Origin: a virus
Lineage: Duplodnaviria > Caudoviricetes
Virus record (IMG/VR): IMGVR_UViG_3300016484_000569
Location: 1-60,073 of that record
Direction: 5' to 3' (one strand)
DNA length: 60,073 bases
Position numbers and translations under genes: made by a program. The notes beneath the pieces are model-generated. The model did not search any database, was not told the DNA's origin, and saw only the letters and a program-made list of their open reading frames with translations. Positions within the stretch are counted from its first letter, which is position 1; every line of letters begins with the position of its first letter. This document shows positions 9,481-60,073 of the stretch, in pieces.

Positions 9481-9492
9481 GGATGCCTCCTA

Positions 9493-10428
9493 TCAGGCGA
9501 TGTTACCGTACATTTGCCCCGCCGCACTCGACAAGTCACGGGCGAAGTTGGCGCGGCGTTTGTACAGGTCTTCGTAGATCGTCTTGTTCAGTTCGGACGC
9601 CGAGGTCGGGACGTTGGTCGGCAGTTGCGAGAGTCCAGACGCCGTGGCCTGCGCAGCACGAGCGTTCTCGCCGGTCACAGCGGCGGTACCGAGGCGGGTG
9701 CCTTCGATGGCGGCGCGGCGGCGGTTCGCATCCTGCAGACCCGGACGGTCGGACACACCAGCGGTGCGGTTGGCTTCGGCGAGACCGCGCTGCACGCCCA
9801 GTTGGGCGGTGGCATAGGCCTGCTCCGGGTTGGCCTGCCCCTGCTGGAGCAGCGAGCGCGCAGCGTCGAGACGCTGGTTGAACACACCACGCTCAGTGGC
9901 GGCGGTCTCGGCGTTGGCGATGAGGTTCTGGCGTTCCACCTCGGTCAGGTCCTGCGGAGCCTTGCCGAACATGGCGAAGGCCAACGGCGCGAGGTTGGCG
10001 GCGGTCAGGCCCGTGCCAAGGATACCACCGCCACCAAGGAGACCGCTGCCCGCCGTGGTGAGACCTGCCGTTGCCGCTGCGCCTGCGGCAGCCGCCGTCT
10101 TGGCGGTCGTGCCGAGGATCGACGCAGTGGAGCCGGGGGCCGCGCCGCTGAACAGACTGCCGACGGAACCGGTTGCCCCCGTGGCGGCAGCCTTGCCCGC
10201 GACACCGAAGGCACCAAGCCCTCCGATGGCTGCGCCAACCAAGGGGTTCACACCTGCGGCTGCCGCCCCAAGACCACCAATCGCGGCCCCGGTCAGCGCC
10301 GTCCCCAGCGTGCTGGAGATGCCGATGGCACCTGCGATGGGCGCAGCGACGAAGGGAGCGACGACCATGGCCGCCACCCCCGCGATCTTCTTGAGACCCT
10401 TCCAGATTTTAGAACCCCAGCCCATCAC
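9493..10428 (-). CDS. Gly/Ala-rich hydrophobic internal virion (DNA ejection) protein
   Basis: Basic N-terminus, long hydrophobic Gly/Ala segments, then coiled-coil-like region; synteny. Confidence 0.6.
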   Translation of the reverse strand: MMGWGSKIWKGLKKIAGVAAMVVAPFVAAPIAGAIGISSTLGTALTGAAIGGLGAAAAGVNPLVGAAIGGLGAFGVAGKAAATGATGSVGSLFSGAAPGSTASILGTTAKTAAAAGAAATAGLTTAGSGLLGGGGILGTGLTAANLAPLAFAMFGKAPQDLTEVERQNLIANAETAATERGVFNQRLDAARSLLQQGQANPEQAYATAQLGVQRGLAEANRTAGVSDRPGLQDANRRRAAIEGTRLGTAAVTGENARAAQATASGLSQLPTNVPTSASELNKTIYEDLYKRRANFARDLSSAAGQMYGNIA

Positions 10429-33825: not shown

Positions 33826-33854
33826 ATGATACACAGCATGGGGTATAGCGGCAA
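33826..33854 (-). promoter_or_regulatory. Sigma70-like promoter for the fibre/heme oxygenase operon
   Basis: TTGCCG (33854-33849), 17 nt, TATCAT (33831-33826), preceded by TG. Confidence 0.55.
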
Positions 33855-33887
33855 GAGAAACCCCGCCGGGGGAGGACCGGCGGGGTT
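33853..33887 (-). terminator. Intrinsic terminator after terL
   Basis: AACCCCGCCGG-N7-CCGGCGGGGTT followed by TCTCTT on the minus strand. Confidence 0.75.
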
Positions 33888-33940
33888 GGTCGAGCAAGTT
33901 GCGTGAGGGTGAACACGCTGGTAGGTGTCCCAAGTGTATA

Positions 33941-35338
33941 TCAGGACCATCCGCGTGCGTCAACGCGCTTGATCTCACGGCGTTGTGCAAGGTGGGTGCT
34001 GTTATCCAGCGTACCGATGTGCAGCATGAGGTACGTCAGAGCATCGCCGATGTGGCTGTGCTTACCCGCGTCACCCGACTTCTCCAGCCCCTCGCCGTTC
34101 TTCTTGAACCGGTATCCCCCCATCAGCGCGGCCTTGAGTCGCGGGCATGACGGGTCGAGCAGGAAGGCCGGGTCTCCGTCGACCTGCCGCATCAGGTAGT
34201 CGTCCACCGCGGCGATGCGCGCCGTGATGCTGTTGGTCCTCGCCGGTATCACCCGCATCCCCTCCGCCTTGATGATGTCGACCGCGCTGCGCTCGTCGGT
34301 CTGCGCCCGCTGGATACCGGCCGGGTCGACCACCACGATGACCGGTGCCCCGCTGAACCGCTCGTAGAGCAGGGGCTTGAGTACGGTCCTGACGAAGCGC
34401 TGGATGCCCATGTCGAAGCTGACCGCCTCGGCGAGCACGAGCGCCCGCCCCCGGGGGTCCTGCTGCCCAATCACGGCTGCCGGAGTAAGACCCAAATCCA
34501 TGCCCACAATGACAGGACGGGTGCCGTTGATGACAGGTCGAAGGGGAGTCCGCGCCATGTGATATTCGGGGCGGAAGTATTTGAACACCGGGGTGCCTGC
34601 GAGGGAATGGCCGTATTCGCCATCAATGAACACCCGGATGTACTCCTCCGAGCGACCTTGGGTGTCATAGTATCCCTCCGGTAGGTTCTCGATGTTCTCG
34701 GCATAGGGACTCCGTCCTGACGGTTGCTTGAACACATCCCACCCATTCTCGTTGGGCGAGACCCCATCCTTGGGGTCGATCTTCTCCATCTGGTAGTACC
34801 ACCACGTGTCCATGGTGGGCGGGTTGGTGTCGCCCCACATGCCGTGCCACGTCGCGCCGCCGTCCTTGGCGGAGGGGTATCGCCCGACCCGCTTGGACAT
34901 GGCGTCCACGATGTCGGGGTGGATGTCCCGGCACTCGTTGAACCATGCGAAGGTCAGTTCGAGTGAGTTCAGGTTGGCCACGTCATCCGCGTCGTCCAGC
35001 GCGCGGAACATGATCTCGCACTCCACGTCACCCACCTTGAAGAAGTAGGTCTTGGTGGTGCGCATGAACGTCCCGCAGACACCCGGCGGGAACCAATCGA
35101 GGAACGTCTTGATCGTGGTGTCGGAGAGTTGGCGCACGGTCTCGCGGACCACGGCGCAGCGGCTCTTGCGGATGCCGTTGGCATTGGGCTTCTGCATGCT
35201 GGCCCGGCGGATGATCTCAAAGCAGCAGGCCACGCTCTTGCCCGAGCCGACCGGCCCCATGATGACCCGCATCTTCTTGTCCGACCGCATGAACCGGTCG
35301 ACCGTGGGCGTCGGTGTGTAGGAGATGTCGAGTGGCAT
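33941..35338 (-). CDS. terL: Terminase large subunit
   Basis: Walker A GPVGSGKS, Walker B-like AWFNE, DTNPP coupling motif, nuclease GMDLG...DPAG...SHIGDALTY; ATG 35338 overlaps the upstream TGA. Confidence 0.95.
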   Translation of the reverse strand: MPLDISYTPTPTVDRFMRSDKKMRVIMGPVGSGKSVACCFEIIRRASMQKPNANGIRKSRCAVVRETVRQLSDTTIKTFLDWFPPGVCGTFMRTTKTYFFKVGDVECEIMFRALDDADDVANLNSLELTFAWFNECRDIHPDIVDAMSKRVGRYPSAKDGGATWHGMWGDTNPPTMDTWWYYQMEKIDPKDGVSPNENGWDVFKQPSGRSPYAENIENLPEGYYDTQGRSEEYIRVFIDGEYGHSLAGTPVFKYFRPEYHMARTPLRPVINGTRPVIVGMDLGLTPAAVIGQQDPRGRALVLAEAVSFDMGIQRFVRTVLKPLLYERFSGAPVIVVVDPAGIQRAQTDERSAVDIIKAEGMRVIPARTNSITARIAAVDDYLMRQVDGDPAFLLDPSCPRLKAALMGGYRFKKNGEGLEKSGDAGKHSHIGDALTYLMLHIGTLDNSTHLAQRREIKRVDARGWS

Positions 35339-35763
35339 CAGTCCTCCTTCGGCGCGGTCGGCGGCCGCAGCAGGTCCAGCGACTCTGCGAACCTCCGCCC
35401 GGCCCAATCCACCTGCTCGTTCGTCTCGAGGTTGGACCACGTGTGGATGGCCCCGCCCTCACGCAGCACGACCACCGCGACGACGTCCGGGTGCTCGATC
35501 CGGCGCATCGTGACGCGCTTGGCGAAGTCAGGATCACCATTGCCCCCGATCTGCCGCACTGGCGGCAGCCGGTCCGCGCCCCAGTCAGGGTCCGTGTCCT
35601 TCCGGTACCACCCGCCAAGCGGGGTGTCGTCAATTCGTTGGGTGCCGCACAGCGCGCATACTGCCGTGTCGTCCGACATCAGTTCGAACGACGTGCAGCC
35701 GCAGTCGCAGACCCAGATGTAGGTCTCTTGGGTGGTGGAGGGGAGTGGGATGACCTCAGCCAT
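35338..35763 (-). CDS. Hypothetical protein with Zn-ribbon (CxC...CxxC)
   Basis: WVCDCGC...CALCG; coupled to terL. Confidence 0.6.
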   Translation of the reverse strand: MAEVIPLPSTTQETYIWVCDCGCTSFELMSDDTAVCALCGTQRIDDTPLGGWYRKDTDPDWGADRLPPVRQIGGNGDPDFAKRVTMRRIEHPDVVAVVVLREGGAIHTWSNLETNEQVDWAGRRFAESLDLLRPPTAPKED

Positions 35764-35914
35764 AGACAAACACCATGTAAAGCGGTTTTCCCGCCTTTGG
35801 GCGGGGTGATCTTATCAGGCGGAAGGGTTTCTTGGCGGCTTTCAGGGTGGCGATGAACGCCTGCGCCGCAAAGAGGCTGTAAAACTGGTGCGCCTTAGTC
35901 GTGGTCGACAACAT
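35756..35914 (-). CDS. Small basic hypothetical protein (52 aa, below the ORF-track cut-off)
   Basis: Hand translation MLSTTTKAHQFYSLFAAQAF...YMVFVYG; fills the gap and overlaps both neighbours. Confidence 0.45.
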   Translation of the reverse strand: MLSTTTKAHQFYSLFAAQAFIATLKAAKKPFRLIRSPRPKAGKPLYMVFVYG

Positions 35915-36371
35915 CGGCGTCATCCATGGGCAACGCAGGCGGTTTCGCCGTCACATCGAGGGTCTGACCCCCCAGATTGATGCTGATCGTGACCCCACCG
36001 GCCGCGCCTTGGCCGTCATTGGCCGGTCCGGTGTCCAATCCGGCCCATTTCACCGTCGATTTGATGAGATCAGCCTTCACCGCGGGGGAAACCACGGGGT
36101 CGTGGATCAACAACCAGCTTGTCTGGAGCAATTCCTCGGCCTGCGCCCGGGCTTTGACCCGAAAAGTCAGCCCTTTGGTGCGAACTTCTTCCCTGTAGGC
36201 GTCGACTTTCTTGAGAAACGTCGGATCGGCCTTGAAAATCAGCAGTTCGGAGGCGCTGACTTCGTGCCGGTCGAGCATTTCGTCGAGTTTTTCCCCGCTC
36301 CCTTCAAGGAGCAAGGCGAGATCGAAGGCAAAACGATCTGTCCAGCGGGGGGATACGGGGTTCATGTACAT
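35895..36371 (-). CDS. Putative terminase small subunit
   Basis: Helical protein ending in a GVTISINLG beta-strand; first gene of the operon containing terL. Confidence 0.6.
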   Translation of the reverse strand: MYMNPVSPRWTDRFAFDLALLLEGSGEKLDEMLDRHEVSASELLIFKADPTFLKKVDAYREEVRTKGLTFRVKARAQAEELLQTSWLLIHDPVVSPAVKADLIKSTVKWAGLDTGPANDGQGAAGGVTISINLGGQTLDVTAKPPALPMDDADVVDHD

Positions 36372-36378
36372 GTGGATA

Positions 36379-36407
36379 AAGGTAACGCGGGGAAATTGAG
36401 TCGTCAA
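36379..36407 (-). promoter_or_regulatory. Sigma70-like promoter for the terS-terL operon (possibly leaderless)
   Basis: TTGACG, 17 nt, TACCTT, 7 nt, ATG. Confidence 0.55.
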
Positions 36408-36576
36408 GTGTTATATAACGTGATGATTTGATGGCTGGAACGGTGTAAAAATGTAAAGTTTTGGTTTTTAGGGTCTTGTTATACGCGCTATACTACAATA
36501 CCGGGGGGTCAGAAAAGTTCAGTCCAACCCCCCACCCCCCCTCCCTGCCTGCTATAGGGCAGGATTTGCGCTTAGA

Positions 36577-36605
36577 TTGACGTTTTCGGCGTCCTATGCC
36601 ATAAA
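36577..36605 (+). promoter_or_regulatory. Sigma70-like early promoter
   Basis: TTGACG, 17 nt, CATAAA. Confidence 0.5.
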
Positions 36606-36639
36606 GAAAGGGTAGCAAGTGACCAAGTAAACAGTAACC

Positions 36640-36667
36640 GGACGGCGACGTCCACGCTCTTTGACAT
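36640..36667 (+). promoter_or_regulatory. boxB-like GNRA hairpin plus boxA (rrn-type antitermination site)
   Basis: GGACG-GCGA-CGTCC then GCTCTTTGACAT. Confidence 0.7.
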
Positions 36668-36735
36668 CGTAGCAAGACTGACATCTGAAACAGTGGTGTC
36701 GCGTCGACACCACATATGCCATATGGAGATATGCA

Positions 36736-37128
36736 ATGGCTATGATTGCTCGGGACCACGTCGAACTGATCGTTCGTTTGGTTGTCACCAAGGAAACCGC
36801 TGGCGGCTTGCTCGGCGGGATTACCGAAGTGGAAGTCCTCACTGCGAATGGTGAGGTTGACGGTCGCTTCTACGGCTTTGCCGACCCGACTGGTCGCATG
36901 GTCCTGAACTATAAGGCCGGTGGCCGCCCGGCGAAACCGGTTCGGGAAGAAAAGCCCGCACCGAAGCCGCTGACCACGGCGCAGAAGGCCGCTATCCCGG
37001 CCAATGGCACGAAAGGCAAACCCAAGGCGAAAGCCGCGGCAAAGCCCGAAGCCGAAGCGCCAAGCGAAATGGAACTGATGCTCGAGCGGATGCTCGAGAA
37101 AAAGCTCAAAGAGATGCTTGGCAAGTAA
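36736..37128 (+). CDS. First early protein, hypothetical, with a Lys/Ala/Pro-rich linker
   Basis: 130 aa; GGAG RBS. Confidence 0.8.
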   Translation: MAMIARDHVELIVRLVVTKETAGGLLGGITEVEVLTANGEVDGRFYGFADPTGRMVLNYKAGGRPAKPVREEKPAPKPLTTAQKAAIPANGTKGKPKAKAAAKPEAEAPSEMELMLERMLEKKLKEMLGK

Positions 37129-37134
37129 GAACCG

Positions 37135-37154
37135 GGCGGGCCGCAAGGCCCGCC
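37135..37154 (+). other. Intergenic GNRA hairpin
   Basis: GGCGGGCC-GCAA-GGCCCGCC. Confidence 0.7.
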
Positions 37155-37182
37155 TCCACCCTCTCTCACAAGGAACCTTAAC

Positions 37183-37347
37183 ATGCAGAAGATCGACGAT
37201 ATCCAGCGCGCCTCCATCCGCCGCAGCGAAGCCTACCTGCGCAAGAAGGCGCTGCAGCGCCCGACAGGCTTTATCCGCGAGTTCCTCGCCGGTGCCCTGT
37301 TCGCCCTCTTTACACTCGCCGTCCTCATCGTGCTCCTCGCCCTGTAA
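37183..37347 (+). CDS. 54-aa early membrane protein (C-terminal TM helix; not in the ORF track)
   Basis: AAGGA RBS; MQKIDDIQRASIRR...FLAGALFALFTLAVLIVLLAL. Confidence 0.7.
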   Translation: MQKIDDIQRASIRRSEAYLRKKALQRPTGFIREFLAGALFALFTLAVLIVLLAL

Positions 37348-37354
37348 ACCCCAC

Positions 37355-37386
37355 AACCCGCCCGGTCACCACCGGGCGGGTTTTTT
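37355..37386 (+). terminator. Intrinsic terminator
   Basis: AACCCGCCCGGT-CACC-ACCGGGCGGGTT plus T-run. Confidence 0.9.
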
Positions 37387-37389
37387 CAT

Positions 37390-38088
37390 GTCTGCTTTAC
37401 ACCGCAAGAGCCGCACAGCGATAGCGGTAGCGTGTAAAGGTAGTTAGTCTGCTCGCTGTCGCTCGCCATACGTCGGGGGGCTGTAGCTCCTCTACACGAA
37501 GTGGCCTGACATCTCACGCTCTACCTTTACACTGCGTCGGGGGGGACTGCCACCTTTACACAGCTAAGTCATTGATATTAAACGGGTATCTAAATTTACC
37601 TTTACATTCGCTTTACACTCGCACCGTAAAGCGAATATGTTCCGTATAATGTAAAGTTTGGGCTAACCCATTGATTCCATTGGGTTTCCCGCTGTAAACC
37701 AACGGCTCACTAGTGTATAAATATATATACTATCTAATTTATCTAAGAAAAAATAATAAACGGCTACTGAAAAACGCTGAGAGCACTGAGGCGAGTTTAC
37801 ACACTGTAAACACAACCCGTAGTTAGCGCGTTTTTAGGGGCCTCTTTTCTGAAAAATCTTAGATAGTTGAGATACCGCCTCACAACCCATTGATTTCCCA
37901 TCACTTTCTCTATACATTTACAAAACCTTTTCGAGATACATCTGCTCAAATTCTTAGATACTTTACACGTATCTTCCCCCTTGACCCCCAAATTTGACAC
38001 CCGAAACCGGATCGGCTAGGTTGTTTGGGCTGGCCGAGGTCACCCCGAATACCTCCGGTTTCCGGCGATCCAACCCATCTTTACACCT
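37390..38088. repeat. AT-rich non-coding region with iterated motifs (putative replication origin)
   Basis: 13 TTTACA/TGTAAA copies, 3 CATTGAT boxes, opposed TATCTAA/TTAGATA sets, AT-rich core ~37715-37760. Confidence 0.65.
37994..38022 (+). promoter_or_regulatory. Sigma70-like early promoter
   Basis: TTGACA, 17 nt, TAGGTT. Confidence 0.65.
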
Positions 38089-38379
38089 ATGGAGTATACC
38101 ACAATGACCTCTCGCTGGACCAAACTCGCCGACCTTTCCGCCAAGGTTAACAAGAAGACCTTGACGGTCCGTCCTCTGACCCGTCCTTACATCTCCATGT
38201 CCGCCGTGGTTTATGACTACCACGTTGGCCATGAGTTCGTGGTTGTGGACCAGTCCTCCCCGCTTAACAACTGCCGTGTCACTGTCTGTGACCGTCACAC
38301 TCTCAAGTCCCACTACGACTTGACCCACCTTAACATCCAGTTCAACCCCGGTCTGTCCCCGGTAGAGGTGGCTCTGTGA
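38089..38379 (+). CDS. Hypothetical early protein
   Basis: ORF after the promoter; the start may be ATG 38104 (GGAG upstream). Confidence 0.7.
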   Translation: MEYTTMTSRWTKLADLSAKVNKKTLTVRPLTRPYISMSAVVYDYHVGHEFVVVDQSSPLNNCRVTVCDRHTLKSHYDLTHLNIQFNPGLSPVEVAL

Positions 38380-38582
38380 TGCGGCTCGGTTTCTCTCAGC
38401 CCGACTACCTCGTCTTTGTCCCTGACTATCATCCAGCCTACGGGTTGGATGATAACACGAGAGCCGAAGTGCTGCGCCTCGTCATGGTAGACAAGCTGCC
38501 TGTAAAGGTGGCTGCCCGTCGTCATCGTCTTGCCAAGTCCACTGTCTACAAGTGGCTGGCTGCTATCAAGAAGGACCTCTGA
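38379..38582 (+). CDS. Small helix-turn-helix protein
   Basis: VKVAARRHRLAKSTVYKW recognition-helix pattern. Confidence 0.65.
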   Translation: MRLGFSQPDYLVFVPDYHPAYGLDDNTRAEVLRLVMVDKLPVKVAARRHRLAKSTVYKWLAAIKKDL

Positions 38583-38583
38583 T

Positions 38584-39390
38584 ATGTTCTCTGCCTCGTT
38601 CAAACTCCTTCACATCCACTCCTATGAGCAGGCTCACACCCTCTGGGAGTCCATCACCCCGATCCGTGGTCGGTCCACTGATGTCCGTCCTCTGTTCCGT
38701 CGGTCCAACGACAATGCCATTGTCCACAAGAACGACCGTGACCAGTCGGTCCGGTTCCGGCTCTATCAGACCGATGTCGTGACGTTTAACACCGATGGCA
38801 CTGTGGACCTCGAACCCTATGCCAGCCGCAGCACTAACAACTTCGCTTGGGCTGTCCTCCGTGGTCGCACTGTCCGCACTCACTGGGCCGACCGTCACCA
38901 CCCCTGTCCCGACCATGTCACCGAGATCGGCGGTCGGTTCTACCACACCCCGGACTTCGTCACTGTCCAGTGGGACAAGGACGCCTATGACTGGTCCTAT
39001 GTGGCCGGTGCTGTGCCGTTCGAGGTCCCTACTCTGAACATGTCCCTTACAAGGGAGGCTCGGAAGGACAGCCGCTATGACGAGTTCGCCCTGTGGATCA
39101 AGACCCAGCTTCGCCTCGGGGTCGATCCGAGGATGGGTGACACATGGCGGGTCAAGCCCTACGACTGGTCCACTCGTGAGGTCAGTCAGTATCTGGCTGT
39201 CGGTCCTGAGGGCTGGTCAGAGATGACCCGCCGGATGTCCCGTTGGACCAACATCGACGCTGACTTGGAGGCTCTGCGGATGGCTGTCTACAAGTGGGCT
39301 GGGTATTGCCTCGACGAGACCGAGGTGCCCTACTTCAACAGCTTCTCTGAGATGACTGCGGCCTTCGCCAAGATGCGTAAGTATGGCTGA
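38584..39390 (+). CDS. Hypothetical early protein (268 aa)
   Basis: AAGGA RBS, ATG 38584. Confidence 0.8.
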   Translation: MFSASFKLLHIHSYEQAHTLWESITPIRGRSTDVRPLFRRSNDNAIVHKNDRDQSVRFRLYQTDVVTFNTDGTVDLEPYASRSTNNFAWAVLRGRTVRTHWADRHHPCPDHVTEIGGRFYHTPDFVTVQWDKDAYDWSYVAGAVPFEVPTLNMSLTREARKDSRYDEFALWIKTQLRLGVDPRMGDTWRVKPYDWSTREVSQYLAVGPEGWSEMTRRMSRWTNIDADLEALRMAVYKWAGYCLDETEVPYFNSFSEMTAAFAKMRKYG

Positions 39391-39393
39391 CAA

Positions 39394-39461
39394 GCTGTCG
39401 AAACAGGGGGTTCGCCCCCTGTCTGCCATGGCTGGCTACCATGGCACTGATGAGACAAGCC
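39394..39461 (+). ncRNA. Type II hammerhead ribozyme
   Basis: UGUC-GAAA-CAGGGGG(UUCG)CCCCCUG-UC^-UGCCAUGG(CUGGCUA)CCAUGGCA-CUGAUGA-GACA-AGCC: complete catalytic core, GUC cleavage triplet, three paired stems. Confidence 0.92.
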
Positions 39462-39479
39462 CTATGGAGAACATACACA

Positions 39480-40472
39480 ATGCGTCCTTCTCTGCTTTCC
39501 GACACCCTCAAGGACCTCATCTCGATCCGTCGCACCGTGGCTATCGAAGGTGCGCCGGGGGGTGGCAAGACCTCGTTGATCCGGTCCGTCGCTGACTACC
39601 TCGGGCTGCACTACATCGAGCGGCACTTGCCCACCATGCTGGTCGAGGACTTCGGCATCCCTGTCATCGGCTCTGACACCCTGCGTTACATGATCCCCGA
39701 CTGGTTCCCCGCCAAGGGGTCCAAGTGGGACGATGGCATCGGTGGGGTCCTCTGCTTCGACGACCGGAACCAAGCCCCGGCTGACATCCAGAAGGTGCTG
39801 GCTAACATCCAGCAGGCTCGGAACCTCCACGGCATCCCGATGGCTGATGGCTGGACTGTCGTGTCCACTGGCAACAGGCAGGAGGATCGGGCTGGTGCCA
39901 ACCGCGTCCTGTCGCACCTCTCTGACCGTGAGACCACGCTGGTCTACGAGACCAACCTCGATGACTGGTCGTCGTGGGCACTGACCAACGGGGTCAAGCC
40001 TGAGGTCGTGGCCTTCATCCGCTTCCGTCCCGGTCTGCTGCACGACTTCGACCCCAACCGCAACAAGAACTCCACGCCCCGTGGCTGGGTCGAAGGTGTC
40101 AGTGCTGTCCTCGGTGCCGTCCCGGCCGAGGCTGAGTATGAGTGCTTCAAGGGTGCCGTCGGTGAGGGGGCTGCTGCTGAGTTCGTTGGCTTCCTCAAGA
40201 TTTACCGAAAGCTGCCCAACCCCGACGCCATCCTGCTTAACCCCGACACCGCGGATGTCCCCTCTGATCCGGCCACCCTCTACGCCCTGTCCGGTGCCAT
40301 CTCCAGCCGCATCTCCGGGGCCAACATCGACCGGGCTGTGACCTACCTGTCCCGCTGCCCCGCGGAGTTCTCTGTGCTGGCCATGTCGATGGCTGTCCGC
40401 CGTGACCCGATGGTGACCTCCACCAAGGGGTTCATCGACTGGTCCATCAAGCACCAGTCGGTGCTGTTCTGA
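39480..40472 (+). CDS. MoxR-like AAA+ ATPase
   Basis: Walker A GAPGGGKT, Walker B-like LCFDD, STGN sensor, STPRGW. Confidence 0.85.
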   Translation: MRPSLLSDTLKDLISIRRTVAIEGAPGGGKTSLIRSVADYLGLHYIERHLPTMLVEDFGIPVIGSDTLRYMIPDWFPAKGSKWDDGIGGVLCFDDRNQAPADIQKVLANIQQARNLHGIPMADGWTVVSTGNRQEDRAGANRVLSHLSDRETTLVYETNLDDWSSWALTNGVKPEVVAFIRFRPGLLHDFDPNRNKNSTPRGWVEGVSAVLGAVPAEAEYECFKGAVGEGAAAEFVGFLKIYRKLPNPDAILLNPDTADVPSDPATLYALSGAISSRISGANIDRAVTYLSRCPAEFSVLAMSMAVRRDPMVTSTKGFIDWSIKHQSVLF

Positions 40473-40488
40473 GTAAGTTCAACACAAC

Positions 40489-40509
40489 GGGGTGGCATGG
40501 TGCCACCCC
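40489..40509 (+). other. Intergenic hairpin flanked by AACACAA direct repeats
   Basis: GGGGTGGCA-TGG-TGCCACCCC. Confidence 0.65.
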
Positions 40510-40530
40510 ACAACACAAGGACACATGACT

Positions 40531-41388
40531 ATGACCACACATCTCTCCGACCGCGCTCTGCTGGTGCAACTCAACGTCTCCCAGTGGACAGCCCGCCGCC
40601 TTGATAAGCGGGCGACCAGTGAAGTCATCAACAATAACAACGCCACCGTGGACTCGGGCCGCTTCCATAAGCGGCTGCTGCCCATGAGCGACAGCCTCGC
40701 CAACATCCACACCATGACGGGTGACATCCGGCGGGAGTTCTACGCCAACACCCTGCCGTGGGGGCTGGAGAATACCCACATGCTGCCGACCGCCAACTAC
40801 CTCAACTTCATGACCACCTTCCGCAAGCGGAAGTCTGAGTGGGAGGCTGTGGTGCGCAAGTTCCTCAGTGACTACCCCTACCTCCAGACCAACGCCCAGC
40901 GGTTCCTCGGCAAGCTCTACGATCCGGCCGACTACCCCGATGTCAACGATCTGCGGCACAAGTTCAGCATGGACCTCGTCGTCATGCCGGTCCCGACCAA
41001 TGACTTCCGTGTCCAACTGGCCGACGATGAACTGTCCACCATCCACGCTGACATCCAGCGCCGGGTGCAGGAGAGCAGCGGGCTGGCCATGAAAGAGGCT
41101 TGGCAGCGGCTTTACAGTCATGTTAAGCTGATGTCCGAGCGGTTGGGCAACACCGAGGGTCGGCTCTATGACAGCCTGTTCGACAACGCCATCGAACTGT
41201 GCCGCATCCTGCCGCGCCTCAACTTCTCTGACGATCCCAACCTTGAGGCGATGCGTCAGGAGGTGGAGACCAAGCTGGTGGGTCACAGCAAGGAGGCTAT
41301 CAAGGGCAGCCCGGTGCTTCGTAAACAGGTGGCTGACGAGGCTGCCGACATCATGGCCCGTATGGGCGCTTTCATGGGAGGGGTGTGA
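40531..41388 (+). CDS. DUF3150-like protein
   Basis: LVQLNVSQWTARRLDK...TLPW...LPRLNF pattern; context with AAA and vWA genes. Confidence 0.55.
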   Translation: MTTHLSDRALLVQLNVSQWTARRLDKRATSEVINNNNATVDSGRFHKRLLPMSDSLANIHTMTGDIRREFYANTLPWGLENTHMLPTANYLNFMTTFRKRKSEWEAVVRKFLSDYPYLQTNAQRFLGKLYDPADYPDVNDLRHKFSMDLVVMPVPTNDFRVQLADDELSTIHADIQRRVQESSGLAMKEAWQRLYSHVKLMSERLGNTEGRLYDSLFDNAIELCRILPRLNFSDDPNLEAMRQEVETKLVGHSKEAIKGSPVLRKQVADEAADIMARMGAFMGGV

Positions 41389-41389
41389 G

Positions 41390-41833
41390 ATGGGGTATCG
41401 CAGCGACGTGGCCATCGGCATGTCGTTCAAGAACAGGGAGGCGCTCGTCGCCTTCCTGTCGGCTGTCCGGTTGGGTGACGCTATACCGTCTGAGGAACTC
41501 GATCAATACGAGGTGACCGATGCGGGGGAGTTGGGTGTCCTGCTCCACGCCAACTTCTTGGGTGTCAAGTGGTATGACAGCTACCCCGATGTGAAGTGTC
41601 ACCATAACCTGTTGGACATGGCAGCGGAGCGTGGTGCAGGCACGGCATTCATCCGCATCGGGGAGGAATATAACGACATCACCTACGAGATCGACACGGC
41701 CGACGTTGACCTCGATCTATATGACTTCTTCGGTGTCAGCCGTCAGGTTACCTATCCCGAGGATGGCACCGCTATCGCAGACTACATGAAGGACACGACA
41801 TGTCAGACATCTACAGCAACATCGACGAGATGA
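41390..41833 (+). CDS. Hypothetical protein
   Basis: MGYRSDV...VKWYDSY...FIRIGEEYND; GGAGG RBS. Confidence 0.7.
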   Translation: MGYRSDVAIGMSFKNREALVAFLSAVRLGDAIPSEELDQYEVTDAGELGVLLHANFLGVKWYDSYPDVKCHHNLLDMAAERGAGTAFIRIGEEYNDITYEIDTADVDLDLYDFFGVSRQVTYPEDGTAIADYMKDTTCQTSTATSTR

Positions 41834-42129
41834 TCGACCTGTATGGTCGCAAGATCGAGTTGCTCCGGCAACTCAAGAAGGGACTGATGCTGGCAGAGAT
41901 GATCGGCATCCCTGCCAAGGACATCAAGGGGAAGCTGTCGCATGGTGTCACCAGCTACGGCACCCCGCTATACGCCAGACCATGGAAGACGGAGGAGTTC
42001 GTTATCCGTCTCGATGGCGAGGAGGTGTATAGGAAGAAGCTGATCGACGTGCCGCAGGATTTCTGGCCCGTCGAAGTGCTTGCCGAGTATAAGCGTTACG
42101 TTAAGCGCACTCAGAAACCCAAGGAGTAA
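41800..42129 (+). CDS. Hypothetical protein
   Basis: 109 aa; AAGGA RBS. Confidence 0.7.
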   Translation: MSDIYSNIDEMIDLYGRKIELLRQLKKGLMLAEMIGIPAKDIKGKLSHGVTSYGTPLYARPWKTEEFVIRLDGEEVYRKKLIDVPQDFWPVEVLAEYKRYVKRTQKPKE

Positions 42130-42134
42130 GACAC

Positions 42135-43256
42135 ATGCAGTCCATGGAAACCCTCAAGACCCGCCTCGCCAAGGCCAAGACCAGCCTCGTGCTGGAGCAC
42201 CCCTTCGTCGGCACCATCGCACTGGGTATGCCGCACACCTACTCTGATGCGGTGCCCACCGCTGCCACCAACGGCAAACGTGTGCTCTATAACCCGGCCT
42301 TCGTCTCCGATCTGACCGATGAGGAACTCAAGTTCCTTGTGGCCCATGAGTGCATGCACCCCATGCTGGAGCACAACTTCCGTCGTCAGTCCCGCGACCC
42401 CAAGAAGTGGAACATGGCGGCTGACTATGTCATCAACCAACTGCTGACCGACGAGGGCATCGGCAAGTTCATCGAGGGCGGCTGCCTCAACAAGGCGCTC
42501 TACGATGCAGGTCAGGGTGTGTCCGAGCAGATTTATACCCTGCTGCCGGAGCAAGACGGTGACGGCGACGGCATCGGTGGTGCAGGTCAGGACCTTGAGG
42601 ATGGCGAAGGCACCGCACAGGACCAAGCCCAAGAGGCTGCCGAGTGGAAGGTCAAGGTGGCTCAAGCTGCACAGGCTGCCAAGATGATGGGCAAGTTGTC
42701 GGCAGGCATGGCCCGCCTCGTTGACAGCATCCTCAACCCCACCGTTGACTGGCGTGATGTGCTCCAGAAGTTCGTCATCAAGCACAAGACCGACGAGCGC
42801 AGCTTCTCCCGGCCTAACCGTCGCTTCATGTCGCAGGGTCTCTACATGCCGAGCCGCAGCGGTGAGCGGATGGGTCCGATTGCCTTCCTTGTGGACTGCT
42901 CCGGCTCTGTCGACGACGCCCAGCTTGCCCAGATGGCAGCCGAGGTGCGCACGGTGCATGAGGACCTGCGTCCTGAGAAGCTGCACGTGGTATACTTCGA
43001 CGCCGAGGTCACCCACTACGACTGCTTCCTGCCCGACGACACGGTGTCGATCAGCTTCCATGGTGGCGGTGGCACCGATGTCCGCGCAGCCTTCGACTAC
43101 CTCGATGCCGAGGGTCATGCTGACGGACTGGCTTGCACCATCGTGCTGACTGACGGCTACACCCCCTACCCCGAGGGCTGCTCCACCCCGGTCATCTGGG
43201 CCATGACCACTGACATGAACGCCCCGTTCGGTGAGCACTGCCGGGTCAAGGTGTGA
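42135..43256 (+). CDS. DUF2201-type metallopeptidase plus vWA domain protein
   Basis: TAATNG...AHECMH (HExxH)...WNMAADYVIN; MIDAS DCSGS...GGGGTD...LTDG. Confidence 0.88.
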   Translation: MQSMETLKTRLAKAKTSLVLEHPFVGTIALGMPHTYSDAVPTAATNGKRVLYNPAFVSDLTDEELKFLVAHECMHPMLEHNFRRQSRDPKKWNMAADYVINQLLTDEGIGKFIEGGCLNKALYDAGQGVSEQIYTLLPEQDGDGDGIGGAGQDLEDGEGTAQDQAQEAAEWKVKVAQAAQAAKMMGKLSAGMARLVDSILNPTVDWRDVLQKFVIKHKTDERSFSRPNRRFMSQGLYMPSRSGERMGPIAFLVDCSGSVDDAQLAQMAAEVRTVHEDLRPEKLHVVYFDAEVTHYDCFLPDDTVSISFHGGGGTDVRAAFDYLDAEGHADGLACTIVLTDGYTPYPEGCSTPVIWAMTTDMNAPFGEHCRVKV

Positions 43257-43257
43257 C

Positions 43258-46200
43258 ATGGAGACTGTTCGCACAGCACCGTTCGCCGACACCCCGCTTG
43301 AGGCGGGGTGCATCCTTGTCGCTATGGACGAAGGCGGTCTCATCGCCAACCTCTGGCAGATCGTCAGGCTCTATGATGACGGGAAATGTGATGCCCGCTG
43401 CCCGTTCAATCCCGCAAGGACAGACACCTTCTCGGTCGCCCTCAGCGACACCGAGTGGGTCGGACCGGACCTGCAATCGGTGCTGACCTACCTCAAGCTG
43501 ATGGGGATCGAAGCGCGATGAGCAAGGCACAGAAGACCACGACGGGGTGGCGGCGGCGCTACCTCGTCAACGTCTGGCACAGGCAGAAGGTCGTCGAAGT
43601 GGTGCTGGCCCGAGGTAGGGTCAGACGCAAGCCGGACGGGGATCACCACATCCTCATCTCCTCCAAGCGGGACGGCAAGTGGGACTGGTATGTCCTGCCG
43701 GACCACCAGTTCCTGCACCAGCGGAACATGTTCGAAGCAAGTGAGAGGGACCAGATGCTGGCTCATGTCGCAGCCATTCGGCTGGGTGGATACAGCCTGA
43801 TCGGAGAGGTGCCGTCATGGTAACATTCCCCGAAGGCTATGGGTTCGAGCCGGGCGACAAGGCCCTGCTTATGCAGGGCGAGTTCCTGATATCGGTCGGG
43901 CACTTTGTCTGGATCGGAAACGAGTGGGTGGGCTACGGCAAGAAGCGCAACCGTTCGCCGTGGGGGTTCCATCCTTTCGGCGCAGTCGAGAAGAAGAAGG
44001 GCGAACCCAAGGTCAAGGGTCTGTTCTCAGTGGATATGGACACACCGCCCATCGAAGGATCGTTACAACAGGTGGTGACTGCCATGTGCACCATCCACCG
44101 TATGAAGGGAGTGAAGTAGTGGACCCATCAATCGTCGTCGCAATGGTCGCACTGATCGTGGCAGCAGGTTATATCATATACATCCATCACCAGTTGGATG
44201 AGGCAGAGGAGGCCTGCGGTGAGGCAGAGGAAGCGTTGGAGAACGCCGACCGTGCCGTCACCATATATCAACAAGTCTTGACTGATGTTGCCTATGGCAA
44301 CGCTATTCTGGAGGTATCCCCTAATGGTCAAATCGTCGCAACGAAACTCGCTGATCGAGAAGTATCGCTACATTAACGTCGAGTATATCGACTGGTGGGA
44401 CTGTGTTGAGTCCGACTTCGTCGATGACATGAAGAAGGTGGGCATAGAGGTATCGAAGCTATACTTCTCCGGCTTCTGGTCGCAGGGTGATGGTGCCTGC
44501 TTCACTGGCTCCCTCCGTGACGCCAAGGTCTATCTTGACCACCATCATCAGGATCAGTTCCCCATGATCCGCAAGCTGTTGGAACATGGCGGTGATGTCT
44601 GGGCAACCAGCAGGCACAGCGGACGCTACTACCACCACATGTCCACCATCATCAGCGCCGAGAGCGACACGTTCTACAACGTGATGGCCCAGCCGACCGA
44701 GTTCCATGCTGCCGTCGTCGAGCAGTGGGACGAGGCGCTCACCAAGGAGATGTCCGAGTTCGAGACGGCACTGACCGAGCAGTGGCGCACCTATATGCAG
44801 GATGTCTACCGCAAACTAGAGGAGGAGTATGACCATCTGACCAGCGACGAGGCGGTGTGGGATACCATCGAAGCCAACGAGTTGGAGGAGGATGTCGATG
44901 ATGACGAGGATGATTATGATCGAGCCGCCTAAGATACTGGCAGTATGCGACATGTGCTGGGAACATAACCAAGAGGCGTCGTGTTTCCCAATCAAGGACA
45001 TCATGTGGTCCAACATGCACAGCAAGTGGCTCTGTGATTGTTGTTGGGAGGAGCATGACTACGATGATGCCGAGGTGGTAAATGATCTGCCACCACGGGT
45101 CGATGCCTATGCCAGTGATGTCGTGGACAACTATGAAACTATGAAGCAACGGCTGATCGTTGCCGTAACAGCAAGACGTTTGGGAGTATAACACATGACA
45201 CAACTGACCTCATACAAACAGGCGGCAGATTTCTTCGCCAAGGCCCGCAACAAGGAGGCGGGTCGGCCCATCGGCCCGTCCGGCTGGCGTCTCTACAAGG
45301 ACAACGACATCTTCCGCATCACCATCCACGCCAGCGATGTCGCCTATATCATGCCCGATGATACGCTCGTCATGCGGATGGATGACCCTCCGGCCGGGGT
45401 CTCCATGGTGGTGCAGCATATCCTGCCCATCATGATCCAGCGCCGAGGCAAGGACCACTACCGCCTGCACATCCGCAAGCAGGGTGGCAAGCCGCAAGAC
45501 CTCAAGGCCTATGGCCTGACCGACTGGGCAGAACTGCGCACCAAGGGACTGCGCCTGTCGGTCGGGCTGACCATCGACCTCAAGACCCGGCAGCCGGTGG
45601 GCTATGTCGAGCCGGTGCAGGTGGTGGACAGCGATAGGCGCAAGGTCTGGCTGGCGCAGTCTCGCAAGGTCAAGCGCACCCTCAAGACCGTCGCCAAGCT
45701 GGGCGGGTTCCAGCCTCGGATCGACAAGCTGACGGAGAACCGCTGGACATACCAGTCTTTGTTCAGCGCCAGCGAAGCCGACATCCAGATCATCATCGAC
45801 GCCATGCTCAACGACAACATCGAGCCGTTGATCCAGCGCATGGCGGAGACGTTCAAGAAGCATTCCTACTACGAACTTAACGCAACGGAGATGGAGCGTA
45901 TCATCGACCAGATGTTCACATCCAACAGTCTCGCCCTGCGTAAAGCACTCGGCGTTATCGAAATCAAACAGTAAGGTTATACAATGAACCAGACCTACGC
46001 TATCCCGACCCGTGTCAATGTGGTCATCGCCAACGTCCTGTCATCCGGCGCAGCATTCGCCTGCCGGATGGATGATGGTGTCAACTGCTATGTCCCTGTC
46101 AATGTGTCGAACTCGGTCAATGCCAAGATCGGCGACCAGCTTGTCGCCATGATCGTGCCCAACCGCTATACCGACAAGATCGACCGGACCCCGTGGCTCG

Positions 46201-59457: not shown

Positions 59458-60073
59458 TTCGCGGTGAGCAGGTCAACCATCCGCTGCAGATCGGCCTCAG
59501 CAGCATCCGGGGCGGACCGCAGGGTCCGCTCCACCGCCGGGCGACGGGCTTCTTTCAGCGCCTTCTGGGAGTTCTTGACGAAGTTCCGCACCTCCAGCGC
59601 CGTGCCCTTGGCCCCGGCGTTCCAGTCCTCCACGGCTGCCTCGATCTCGCGCGCCCGGGCGCGATCTCCGCGCATCGTCGCCTTGATCCATGCCGTGCGG
59701 AACCCGGTCGCAACCTCCCGCTGGTAGTCGGTCATCCGCTTGGCAGAGCGGATCATCTCATACTGCTTGGCCGCTTCGGACGGGTAGAAGCCCAGCGCCC
59801 GGGCAACCACGGTGCCAGTGGTCATTTGGTCCGAGACGACATAGCCGCGCCGATCCACGATGGCCCCGTTCTGCAGGTAGGCATAGGTGTCCCCCAGCGC
59901 GCGAGCCATGGTGATGGGCGACTCCCGAAACACATCCTCCAGCGACGTCGTGGTGGAGAATGGCGCAGCGATGGCGTCCGCCGCGAACTGCGCGGTGCCG
60001 ATCAGCATCGACGGTGCCGGTCCGAAGATTTCCCCCAGACCACGCAGTGAGTCGCTTCCAGCCAGCAGGATGT
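59454..60073 (-). CDS. C-terminal 206 aa of the giant internal virion protein (continuation of 7105..1)
   Basis: Base 1 plus bases 60073-60072 form codon GAC; the frame reads ...LLPGT-D-ILLAGSDSLRGLGEIFGPAPSM, in frame with the 59454..60008 ORF. Confidence 0.9.
   Translation of the reverse strand, partial: ILLAGSDSLRGLGEIFGPAPSMLIGTAQFAADAIAAPFSTTTSLEDVFRESPITMARALGDTYAYLQNGAIVDRRGYVVSDQMTTGTVVARALGFYPSEAAKQYEMIRSAKRMTDYQREVATGFRTAWIKATMRGDRARAREIEAAVEDWNAGAKGTALEVRNFVKNSQKALKEARRPAVERTLRSAPDAAEADLQRMVDLLTAN

What the first reader, a model, noticed from the sequence alone, without database searches (positions are those of the whole stretch)
39394..39461. Intact type II hammerhead ribozyme between two early genes
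Seen: stem II UGUC (39396-99)/GACA (39454-57); GAAA (39400-03); stem III CAGGGGG-UUCG-CCCCCUG; GUC cleavage after C39423; stem I UGCCAUGG/CCAUGGCA; CUGAUGA (39447-53). Loop I GGCU can pair with 3' AGCC (39458-61), the pseudoknot typical of type II hammerheads. Cleavage would fall 56 nt before the AAA ATPase start, leaving a 5'-OH hairpin-capped mRNA. Known: hammerheads occur in some phage intergenic regions, but their role is largely unresolved.
Basis: partly seen in the sequence, partly recalled or inferred. Interest (0 to 1): 0.9.

Follow-up and report, generated by a model that had tools for sequence, protein, structure and literature searches.

The report
Type II hammerhead ribozyme in phage
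A small self-cutting RNA (a type II hammerhead ribozyme) sits in the gap between two genes of an uncultured phage and probably cuts the shared transcript in two; it looks real and conserved, but it belongs to a kind already known from phages.

Summary
Window 39396-39461 (+) carries a complete type II hammerhead: all 13 core nucleotides, three helices, and a 4-bp pseudoknot between loop I and the 3' tail.

Statistics:
- The linear core motif alone is expected about once by chance.
- The motif with its helices occurs in 0 of 300 shuffles.
- Rfam Hammerhead_II scores 33.2 bits, below its cut-off of 37. It is still the best RNA hit in the window (E 0.0063).

Comparative evidence:
- Relatives of this phage in IMG/VR carry the element at the same place, directly upstream of the MoxR-like ATPase gene. 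Helices I and III covary heavily, II and the pseudoknot less.
- Across 131 phage copies it fills the gap from a stop codon to the next ribosome-binding site.
- One sister clade has a sigma-70-like promoter at that spot instead.

Most likely it cuts the polycistronic transcript after C39423. That leaves an upstream mRNA ending in a hairpin and an ATPase mRNA starting with a 5'-OH hairpin. Cleavage itself is untested.

Type II hammerheads in phage gene clusters, and this processing idea, were published in 2011. This is a new member of a known kind, of modest interest.

The parts
38584..39390 (+). Upstream gene: a 268-aa viral hypothetical protein, stop TGA 39388-90. Its mRNA would become the 5' cleavage product.
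   Evidence: ORF list and translation. No Pfam or PHROG hit. The Atlas finds only viral hypothetical clusters. Homologues at 34-56% identity in 16 of 80 related loci.
39396..39461 (+). The whole type II hammerhead ribozyme, including the pseudoknot tail.
   Evidence: (89.8 bits with the clade model R1).
39396..39399 (+). Stem II 5' strand (UGUC). C39399 is position 11.1. The outermost U39396-A39457 pair is not conserved in relatives.
   Evidence: In one search the outermost pair (columns 1/75) is unpaired in 12 of 25 rows, while the inner three pairs are kept in 26 of 26.
39400..39402 (+). Core nucleotides G12 A13 A14.
   Evidence: Invariant in alignments A1 and A2.
39403..39422 (+). Stem III hairpin: 8 bp from A15.1 (39403)-U16.1 (39422), with UUCG loop 39411-14. 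It becomes the 3'-terminal hairpin of the upstream mRNA.
   Evidence: The hairpin alone folds at -14.6 kcal/mol. 6 of 7 counted pairs show changes on both sides.
39423..39424 (+). Cleavage site: C17 (39423), with the scissile bond before U39424 (position 1.1).
   Evidence: Position inferred from hammerhead geometry (numbering from PMC3088659). Cleavage is not tested.
39424..39446 (+). Stem I hairpin: 8 bp with loop CUGGCUA 39432-38. It becomes the 5'-terminal hairpin of the ATPase mRNA.
   Evidence: Folds at -12.0 kcal/mol alone. 8 of 8 pairs show changes on both sides and 100% of cells are paired.
39434..39437 (+). Loop I nucleotides GGCU, the pseudoknot partner of 39458-61.
   Evidence: The pseudoknot helix has 97.2% of cells paired, and 2 of 5 pairs change on both sides, e.g. 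GGUU/AACC in L025.
39447..39453 (+). Core nucleotides C3 U4 G5 A6 U7 G8 A9 (CUGAUGA).
   Evidence: Conserved in the alignments.
39454..39457 (+). Stem II 3' strand (GACA). G39454 is position 10.1.
39458..39461 (+). 3' tail AGCC, the pseudoknot strand. It gives 4 bp here; most relatives have 5 bp (UGGCU/AGCCA).
39467..39470 (+). Shine-Dalgarno-like GGAG of the ATPase gene, 5 nt after the pseudoknot.
   Evidence: The same GGAG-to-ATG arrangement is seen in relatives.
39480..40472 (+). MoxR-like AAA ATPase gene (330 aa). Its mRNA would be the 3' cleavage product.
   Evidence: phrog_1297 ATPase, E 2.5e-64. Relatives align from residue 1. Homologues in Schitoviridae are annotated ATPase or MoxR-like.

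Best explanation
Window 39396-39461 encodes a genuine, evolutionarily maintained type II hammerhead ribozyme. It lies in the 89-nt gap between a 268-aa hypothetical gene and the MoxR-like ATPase gene of an uncultured phage.

Proposed mechanism:
1. The genes around it are tightly packed on the + strand and are read as one transcript (inferred).
2. Once the 3' strand of stem II and the tail AGCC are transcribed, the RNA folds. Stems I and III are hairpins. Stem II closes the junction. The tail pairs with loop I to hold stems I and II parallel.
3. The RNA cuts itself after C39423 without any protein (inferred from the class; not tested).

Products:
- An upstream mRNA whose 33-nt 3' UTR ends in the GC-rich stem III hairpin with a 2',3'-cyclic phosphate.
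- An ATPase mRNA that begins exactly at the base of the 8-bp stem I hairpin with a 5'-OH, 56 nt before its ATG.

Proposed role (inferred): the cut separates the two cistrons. Their stability and translation are then set independently, and the ATPase/replication module gets a defined, hairpin-protected 5' end that does not depend on host RNases. This is the same job a promoter does at this spot in a sister clade.
For: Anatomy:
- All 13 core nucleotides are present, as are the three core-adjacent pairs: G39454-C39399, U39424-A39446 and A39403-U39422. These are the criteria in PMC3088659.

Statistics:
- 0 of 300 shuffles give a core plus helices.
- RF02276 scores 33.2 bits with E 1.4e-6 per genome. 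It is the top hit of the whole window.

Conservation:
- A clade model (R1) finds exactly one copy in the window (89.8 bits).
- It finds 34 copies in 25 of 80 related loci, all on the gene strand.
- 19 of the 80 loci have it directly before the ATPase start.

Covariation:
- On the model-fitted alignment A3, 96.4% of cells pair against 34-45% with slid partners. 18 of 24 pairs change on both sides. 0 of 500 shuffles reach this.
- On the structure-blind MAFFT alignment A2, 94.2% pair against 33-46%, and 14 of 24 pairs change on both sides.
- RNAalifold predicts the same junction unaided, with 12 of 18 pairs compensatory.
- The pseudoknot covaries (GGUU/AACC in L025).

Placement rule, among 131 distinct copies with at least 400 nt of flank on both sides:
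- 123 have a same-strand stop codon within 40 nt upstream (median 1 nt), against 33 in mirror controls.
- 117 have an SD plus start within 60 nt downstream (median 29 nt), against 8 in mirror controls.
- The window fits, with 5 nt and 26 nt.

Interchange with a promoter:
- L013-L020 form one clade (support 97) nested among hammerhead-bearing lineages on the ATPase tree.
- At the same spot they carry TTGACA-17-TGnGATGAT, matching 10 of 12.

Other points:
- No terminator-like site lies at the element.
- Literature: type II hammerheads with this pseudoknot are active in vitro, the pseudoknot is needed for fast cleavage, clustered phage copies cut about 2-kb transcripts, and processing into gene-length mRNAs was proposed (PMC3088659, passages; PMC6765202, passages).
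Against: - Cleavage was not and cannot be tested here. No RNA data were available.
- The Rfam score is below the gathering cut-off (33.2 against 37).
- Of the 13 ATPase-adjacent relatives given, only 3 reach the cut-off (L006, L007, L026).
- The pseudoknot is 4 bp here against 5 bp in most relatives. In the construct of PMC3088659, shortening it from 6 to 4 bp slowed cleavage about 20-fold.
- With 11 nt of 5' flank, an alternative pairing of GGCUGACA (39385-92) with UGUC and AGCC is predicted more stable than the active secondary structure. The values are -34.8 against -30.0 kcal/mol, with the pseudoknot energy not counted.
- The element is dispensable in the family. Complete relatives carry 1, 3, 1, 0 and 0 copies.
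- The stabilising or insulating role is inference from end chemistry and hairpin positions, not from data.
Confidence: 0.8

Rival explanations
1. It is an active hammerhead, but a conditional one. Cleavage would be gated by translation of the upstream gene, or by ion or temperature conditions, so that ATPase expression is timed rather than constitutively processed.

The stop codon lies 5 nt before the ribozyme (median 1 nt in other phages). A terminating ribosome would therefore cover stem II and the GAAA core. The upstream GGCUGACA could also trap an inactive fold.
For: - Stop-to-ribozyme distance: median 1 nt across 131 copies, 5 nt in the window.
- An alternative fold with the 5' flank is predicted at -34.8 against -30.0 kcal/mol.
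- PMC3088659 discusses regulated hammerheads as a possibility.
Against: - The GGCUGACA competitor is not conserved. The closest relative with the same upstream gene end (L012) lacks it.
- No ligand-binding extension is present; the element is a minimal 66 nt.
- The pseudoknot energy that favours the active fold is not counted in the comparison.
Confidence: 0.1
2. The hammerhead marks the border of a mobile or exchangeable gene cassette. Its main significance would then be modular gene exchange, or excision and circularisation of an RNA, rather than expression of the ATPase.
For: - In L025, L026, L028 and L030 the homologue of the upstream gene is flanked by two hammerheads.
- The upstream gene is far more diverged (34-56%) than the ATPase (64-89%).
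- Some unrelated viral contigs carry 10-13 copies punctuating small genes.
Against: - The window has a single copy, so nothing can be excised.
- Six loci keep the ribozyme before the ATPase without the upstream gene.
- PMC3088659 looked for spliced or circular products and found none.
Confidence: 0.05
3. It is a decayed or inactive hammerhead-like relic. Its two strong hairpins would serve only as structural elements, such as a nuclease barrier or a processing site for a host enzyme.
For: - Sub-threshold Rfam score.
- Shorter pseudoknot than in relatives.
- An extra outer stem II pair; stem II lengthening reduced activity in one published construct.
Against: - Every core nucleotide is intact.
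- 9 U-A and 4 G-C instances of the outer stem II pair occur among 25 relatives.
- Core positions are invariant while the helices covary. That pattern is expected only if catalysis is selected.
Confidence: 0.04
4. It is a chance match to a short motif in a GC-rich genome.
For: The linear core motif alone is expected 1.17 times per window.
Against: - 0 of 300 shuffles give the core plus helices.
- The element is conserved at the same position with compensatory changes.
Confidence: 0.01

Closest known systems
Type II hammerhead ribozymes with a pseudoknot between loop I and the 3' tail (Perreault et al. 2011, PMC3088659; Rfam RF02276 Hammerhead_II)
   Same: - Same permuted topology, same core, and a pseudoknot of at least 4 bp directly after stem II.
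- Same setting between phage or prophage genes, sometimes several per gene cluster.
- Same proposed role of cutting long phage transcripts into gene-length mRNAs.
- The Rfam consensus aligns over all 66 positions.
   Different: - Scores 33.2 bits, under the curated cut-off of 37.
- Stem II is 3-4 bp with no linker before the pseudoknot.
- The host phage lineage is uncultured and unnamed.
HHphage of haloarchaeal viruses HF1/HF2 (described in PMC3088659; passage read)
   Same: - A hammerhead in the early region, a few nucleotides upstream of the start of a replication-type gene (a helicase there, 13 nt upstream).
- The mapped 5' end of the major transcript lies within 3 nt of the cleavage site. 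That is the in vivo precedent for 'the ribozyme makes the mRNA 5' end'.
   Different: - Archaeal virus and a variant core, upstream of a different gene.
- The type of that hammerhead was not checked here.
Clustered hammerheads of Agrobacterium, Azorhizobium and Clostridium prophage regions (PMC3088659)
   Same: Ribozymes flank single genes in one transcript. All copies cleave during in vitro transcription of about 2-kb fragments. The Agrobacterium ones also cleave in E. coli.
   Different: - The window has one copy, not a cluster. Relatives of the window have up to 3.
- Different genes are flanked.
RiboJ-type synthetic ribozyme insulators (recalled from memory; no call)
   Same: A self-cleaving hammerhead placed before a ribosome-binding site. 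It removes upstream RNA context and leaves a 5' hairpin on the expressed mRNA. This is what the element would work like.
   Different: RiboJ is an engineered part derived from a plant satellite RNA hammerhead. There is no evolutionary relation, and it is not a family to which membership applies.

Membership tests
Hammerhead ribozyme (criteria of Perreault et al. 2011, PMC3088659) | Core C3 U4 G5 A6 N7 G8 A9 | tested here: met
   CUGAUGA at 39447-53. Criteria read.
Hammerhead ribozyme (criteria of Perreault et al. 2011, PMC3088659) | Core G12 A13 A14, the A15.1-U16.1 pair, and H17 at the cleavage site | tested here: met
   G39400 A39401 A39402; A39403 pairs with U39422; C39423.
Hammerhead ribozyme (criteria of Perreault et al. 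2011, PMC3088659) | No mispair next to the core in stems I and II (1.1-2.1 and 10.1-11.1) | tested here: met
   U39424-A39446 and G39454-C39399.
Hammerhead ribozyme (criteria of Perreault et al. 2011, PMC3088659) | Three helices around the core, supported by comparative data | tested here: met
   - 96.4% of cells paired, and 18 of 24 pairs with changes on both sides.
- The structure-blind alignment gives 94.2% and 14 of 24.
- RNAalifold finds the junction unaided.
Hammerhead ribozyme, type II | Stems I and III closed by loops, stem II open (5' and 3' ends leave through stem II) | tested here: met
   The order along the strand is: stem II 5' strand, GAAA, stem III hairpin, GUC, stem I hairpin, CUGAUGA, stem II 3' strand.
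Hammerhead ribozyme, type II | Pseudoknot of at least 4 bp between loop I and the nucleotides just after stem II (typical of most members, not obligatory) | tested here: met
   GGCU 39434-37 pairs with AGCC 39458-61, giving 4 bp. In relatives 97.2% of cells pair, and 2 of 5 pairs change on both sides.
Hammerhead ribozyme, type II | Site-specific self-cleavage giving 2',3'-cyclic phosphate and 5'-OH ends | not testable with these tools
   No RNA run holds the sequence. A bench assay is needed.
Rfam RF02276 automatic annotation (an operational threshold, not a property of the RNA) | Bit score at or above the gathering score of 37 | tested here: not met
   - The window scores 33.2 bits.
- Of 13 ATPase-adjacent relatives given to, 3 pass: L006 at 41.2, L007 at 39.2 and L026 at 40.6.
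- Other copies in the same loci also pass (L028 at 46.4 and 41.0; L026 at 45.8 and 37.7).

The most novel reading that the evidence does not exclude
In this phage lineage a self-cleaving ribozyme and a sigma-70-type promoter are interchangeable devices for giving the ATPase/replication module its own mRNA 5' end.

More generally, type II hammerheads in phages would form a compact 'stop codon, ribozyme, ribosome-binding site' cassette. That cassette turns operons into hairpin-capped monocistronic mRNAs without any host RNase.

The rule (median 1 nt after the stop, 29 nt before the start) and the ribozyme-to-promoter swap on the ATPase tree would make the long-open question of what bacterial and phage hammerheads are for directly testable with simple swap constructs.
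Probability: 0.4. Interest if true: 0.5.

Novelty: new member of a known kind. Interest (0 to 1): 0.3.

Why it matters
The biological role of genome-encoded hammerheads in bacteria and phages is still described as open (PMC6765202, passages read).

This element adds nothing new in kind. The lineage around it does offer a clean natural comparison:
- the same gene junction carries a ribozyme in some phages (19 of 75 scorable rows);
- it carries a promoter in one nested clade (8 rows);
- it carries neither in the rest (48 rows).

Across 131 phage copies the ribozyme also occupies a very regular stop-to-RBS position. These two observations suggest concrete swap experiments on mRNA stability and translation.

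Practically, it shows that Rfam's default threshold misses real members of this clade. Ten of the 13 ATPase-adjacent relatives, and the window itself, fall below the cut-off.

Tried and rejected
Searches and checks that led nowhere:
- Nucleotide searches of the region against 50,697 cultured-phage records found nothing. The nearest cultured relatives of the ATPase are N4-like Schitoviridae at 31% identity or less.
- I asked whether cultured relatives carry the ribozyme, which would give a bench model. RF02276 over 5 whole Schitoviridae records found 0 of 5 at E <= 0.01 (Achromobacter Axy11, Rhizobium RHEph16, Pseudomonas inbricus and KPP21, Sulfitobacter phiCB2047-B). The tool's 14 control genomes also gave no match, so this shows little.
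- No tRNA or tmRNA in the window. No other Rfam family reached E <= 0.1. No second hammerhead was found with Rfam or with the clade model.
- The identity of the upstream 268-aa protein is unresolved. There is no Pfam or PHROG hit, and the Atlas gives only viral hypothetical clusters with a weak, sub-threshold lead to PF23790.
- Promoter and terminator scans of 35400-43500 gave only weak promoter-like sites (4 found, 2.5 expected) and no terminator at the ribozyme. So I cannot show where the transcript starts, or that the genes are 'early'.
- The alternative pairing of GGCUGACA 39385-92 looked like a possible switch. It is absent from the closest relative with the same gene end, so I treat it as chance.
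- Expression data: no RNA holder listed. Read laying was not used because only DNA contig runs were offered.
They may already contain relatives of this element.
- I read only passages of PMC3088659 and PMC6765202. All other papers were seen only as search listings. I make no claim that the stop-to-RBS placement rule or the promoter swap is unpublished.
- Correction: my notebook entry overstated array sizes 'at the Rfam cut-off'. My note gave the loop partner as 39433-36; the correct range is 39434-37.

Full report
**What is there.** The window is one complete IMG/VR virus record of 60,073 bp, estimated 100% complete by CheckV.
- GC content is 54-68% in 3-kb windows.
- Structural and packaging genes lie on the - strand up to about 35.4 kb. 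They include terminase, portal/adaptor, an internal virion protein and tail fibre genes.
- A replication-type block lies on the + strand from about 38 kb. It holds a MoxR-like ATPase, a DUF2201 metallopeptidase/VWA protein, a family A DNA polymerase, an SNF2 helicase and a primase-helicase.
- The ATPase followed by the VWA/'HNH' gene is the arrangement seen in N4-like Schitoviridae. Those are the nearest cultured relatives, at only 31% identity or less.

**Gene packing around the finding.** The + strand genes here are tightly packed:
- 38089-38379, then 38376-38582, which overlaps it.
- 38584-39390, after a 1-nt gap.
- 39480-40472, after an 89-nt gap.
- 40492-41388, after a 19-nt gap.

The finding sits in the 89-nt gap.

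**The observation.**
- In standard numbering the core is C3-A9 = 39447-53, G12-A14 = 39400-02, A15.1-U16.1 = 39403/39422, and C17 = 39423.
- The helices next to the core start with correct pairs: G10.1-C11.1 = 39454/39399, and U1.1-A2.1 = 39424/39446.
- These are exactly the acceptance criteria written in Perreault et al. 2011 (PMC3088659, methods passage).
- Stems I and III are capped and stem II is open, so the topology is type II.
- Loop I GGCU (39434-37) pairs with the tail AGCC (39458-61) directly after stem II. That is the pseudoknot the same paper describes for most type II members.

**Is it more than chance?**
- The bare gapped motif is not. It is expected 1.17 times per window, and 67 of 100 shuffles have one.
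- With the helices required, 0 of 300 shuffles have any match against 1 observed.
- Rfam's Hammerhead_II model aligns end to end at 33.2 bits. E is 2.7e-5 locally, 1.4e-6 per genome and 0.0063 for the whole window against all families. It is the best RNA-family hit in the window.
- It is below the curated cut-off of 37, so a default scan is blank.
- The 66-nt RNA on its own has the hammerhead junction as its minimum-free-energy structure.

**Relatives.**
- The ATPase protein retrieved 186 relatives in IMG/VR. The best 80 were kept as loci L003-L082, at 64-89% identity.
- Reading the 140 nt before each ATPase start showed a type II hammerhead at the same place in 19 loci.
- A covariance model built from 10 of them finds one copy in the window (89.8 bits). 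It finds 34 copies in 25 of the 80 loci, all on the coding strand.
- On the resulting alignment (26 distinct rows), 96.4% of pair cells are standard pairs against 34-45% when partners are slid. 18 of 24 pairs show changes on both sides. No shuffle in 500 reaches any of the five measures.
- That alignment is fitted to the model, so I repeated the count on the structure-blind MAFFT alignment. It gave 94.2% against 33-46%, with 14 of 24 pairs.
- RNAalifold predicts the three-way junction by itself, including A15.1-U16.1, with 12 of 18 pairs compensatory.
- The pseudoknot covaries too (GGUU/AACC in L025).
- The outermost stem II pair of the window (U39396-A39457) is not conserved; the conserved stem II is 3 bp.
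- The Rfam cut-off is marginal for this clade. Of the 13 ATPase-adjacent copies given, three pass (L006, L007, L026). Other copies in the same loci also pass.

**How common, and where.**
- The clade model found 184 copies in the 100 of those loci that I searched.
- I pooled these with the ATPase loci and removed duplicates. That left 131 distinct copies with at least 400 nt of flank on both sides, and they show a strict placement:
  - 123 have a same-strand stop codon within 40 nt upstream (median distance 1 nt), against 33 for mirror-image controls.
  - 117 have an SD-preceded start of an ORF of at least 40 aa within 60 nt of the end of CUGANGA (median 29 nt), against 8 for controls.
- The window conforms, with 5 nt and 26 nt.
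- So the ribozyme is an intercistronic cassette that fills the space from a stop codon to the next ribosome-binding site.

**Evolution at this junction.**
- On a quick maximum-likelihood tree of 78 ATPases, one clade of 23 rows (support 94) contains 15 ribozyme-bearing rows and 8 rows (L013-L020) that form a single nested clade (support 97).
- Those 8 have, at the same spot, a sigma-70-like promoter: TTGACA, a 17-nt spacer, TG, then GATGAT, matching 10 of 12.
- With midpoint rooting, the simplest reading is one replacement of the ribozyme by a promoter. The root is not established.
- The remaining 48 scorable rows have an upstream gene abutting the ATPase.
- Complete relatives carry 1, 3, 1, 0 and 0 copies, always in the stretch upstream of the ATPase. 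The element is therefore useful but dispensable.
- The window's upstream gene has diverged homologues (34-56%) in 16 of 80 loci. In four of them it is flanked by two ribozymes.

**Mechanism.**
- Shown by sequence and comparison: the fold and the selection on it.
- Established for the class (PMC3088659): protein-free cleavage 3' of position 17, dependence of fast cleavage on the pseudoknot, and cleavage of clustered phage copies within about 2-kb transcripts in vitro and in E. coli.
- Inferred for this element: it cuts the + strand polycistronic RNA after C39423.
- The upstream mRNA then ends 33 nt after its stop codon, in the stem III hairpin (-14.6 kcal/mol) with a cyclic phosphate.
- The ATPase mRNA then starts with a 5'-OH at the first nucleotide of the stem I hairpin (-12.0 kcal/mol), 56 nt before the ATG.
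- From general knowledge of bacterial mRNA decay (recalled, not from a call), both products should be protected. A 3' hairpin hinders 3' exonucleases. A 5'-terminal hairpin without a 5' monophosphate hinders 5'-end-dependent RNase E or RNase J entry.
- The promoter swap supports the idea that what matters is an independent 5' end for the ATPase module.

**Weak points.**
- There is no activity or RNA data.
- The pseudoknot is one pair shorter than in most relatives. In one published construct, shortening it from 6 to 4 bp cost about 20-fold in rate.
- A non-conserved competing pairing with the 5' flank is predicted slightly more stable when the pseudoknot is ignored.

**Comparison with the known, and verdict.**
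- This is a member of the type II hammerhead class as defined in 2011. It is found in the setting (phage intergenic, before a replication-type gene) and with the suggested role (processing of polycistronic phage RNA) that are already in print (PMC3088659; review PMC6765202).
- The closest functional precedent is the halovirus HF1/HF2 hammerhead just upstream of a helicase gene, where the mapped transcript 5' end coincides with the cleavage site.
- It works like a synthetic ribozyme insulator (recalled).
- It is therefore a new member of a known kind.
- Three comparative observations may be worth a specialist's look: the stop-to-RBS rule, the ribozyme/promoter interchange, and the large arrays noted in passing.

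Noticed in passing
L169 (IMG/VR contig of 52.7 kb), about 1137-10061, - strand; also L129 and L141: Dense arrays of type II hammerheads in unrelated viral contigs.
- L169 has 11 copies at Rfam's cut-off. Adding the clade-model hits gives 13 distinct positions in about 8.9 kb, all on one strand.
- L129 has 10 at the cut-off (11 in the union), including two back to back at 13869-13934 and 13936-14004.
- L141 has 7 at the cut-off (10 in the union).
Nearly every small gene there seems to be bracketed by a ribozyme.
   Followed up: partly
L013-L020, e.g. L015:2923-2951 (+): At the position where the window has the ribozyme, this sister clade has a strong sigma-70-like promoter: TTGACA, a 17-nt spacer, an extended -10 TG, then GATGAT, about 50 nt before the ATPase start. 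The clade is nested among ribozyme-bearing lineages.
   Followed up: yes
L167:3189-3266 and 2813-2889, L180:10691-10766, L175:5559-5631, L165:8273-8345 (and their duplicates in L172 and L170): Eight model hits (5 distinct sequences) have CCGAUGA instead of CUGAUGA, i.e. a U4C core variant, with otherwise intact helices and pseudoknot. PMC3088659 mentions U4C as a variant of reduced activity that is tolerated in a viroid.
   Followed up: no
window 39385-39392 (+): GGCUGACA spans the upstream stop codon. It can pair with both UGUC (39396-99) and AGCC (39458-61), giving a predicted inactive alternative fold (-34.8 against -30.0 kcal/mol). It is not conserved in L012.
   Followed up: partly
window 2-7105 (-) and 59454-60071 (-): A giant ORF of at least 2368 aa runs off the start of the record. 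Another - strand frame runs in from the end of the record, so the two may be one gene split by the linearisation point. Its C-terminal part matches the 3431-position family phrog_11358, of unknown function. Whether it is an N4-type virion RNA polymerase was not tested.
   Followed up: no
window 37355-37382 (+): A 12-bp GC-rich hairpin followed by a T run: a terminator-like site in the low-GC divergent region between the structural and replication blocks.
   Followed up: no
window 33854-33948 (-): A sub-threshold Rfam match to the alphaproteobacterial sRNA ar14 (29 bits against a cut-off of 58.8, E 0.16). It lies in the gap between the terminase gene and the next - strand gene, and is probably noise.
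   Followed up: no
L021:2915-2985, L023:2905-2975, L045:2909-2984: A second hammerhead subtype occurs at the same ATPase junction. It has GGCC/GGCC for stem II and a short stem I loop (UAACG or UCAUG), with no obvious partner for a loop I pseudoknot in the tail. Its tertiary contact is unexplained.
   Followed up: no
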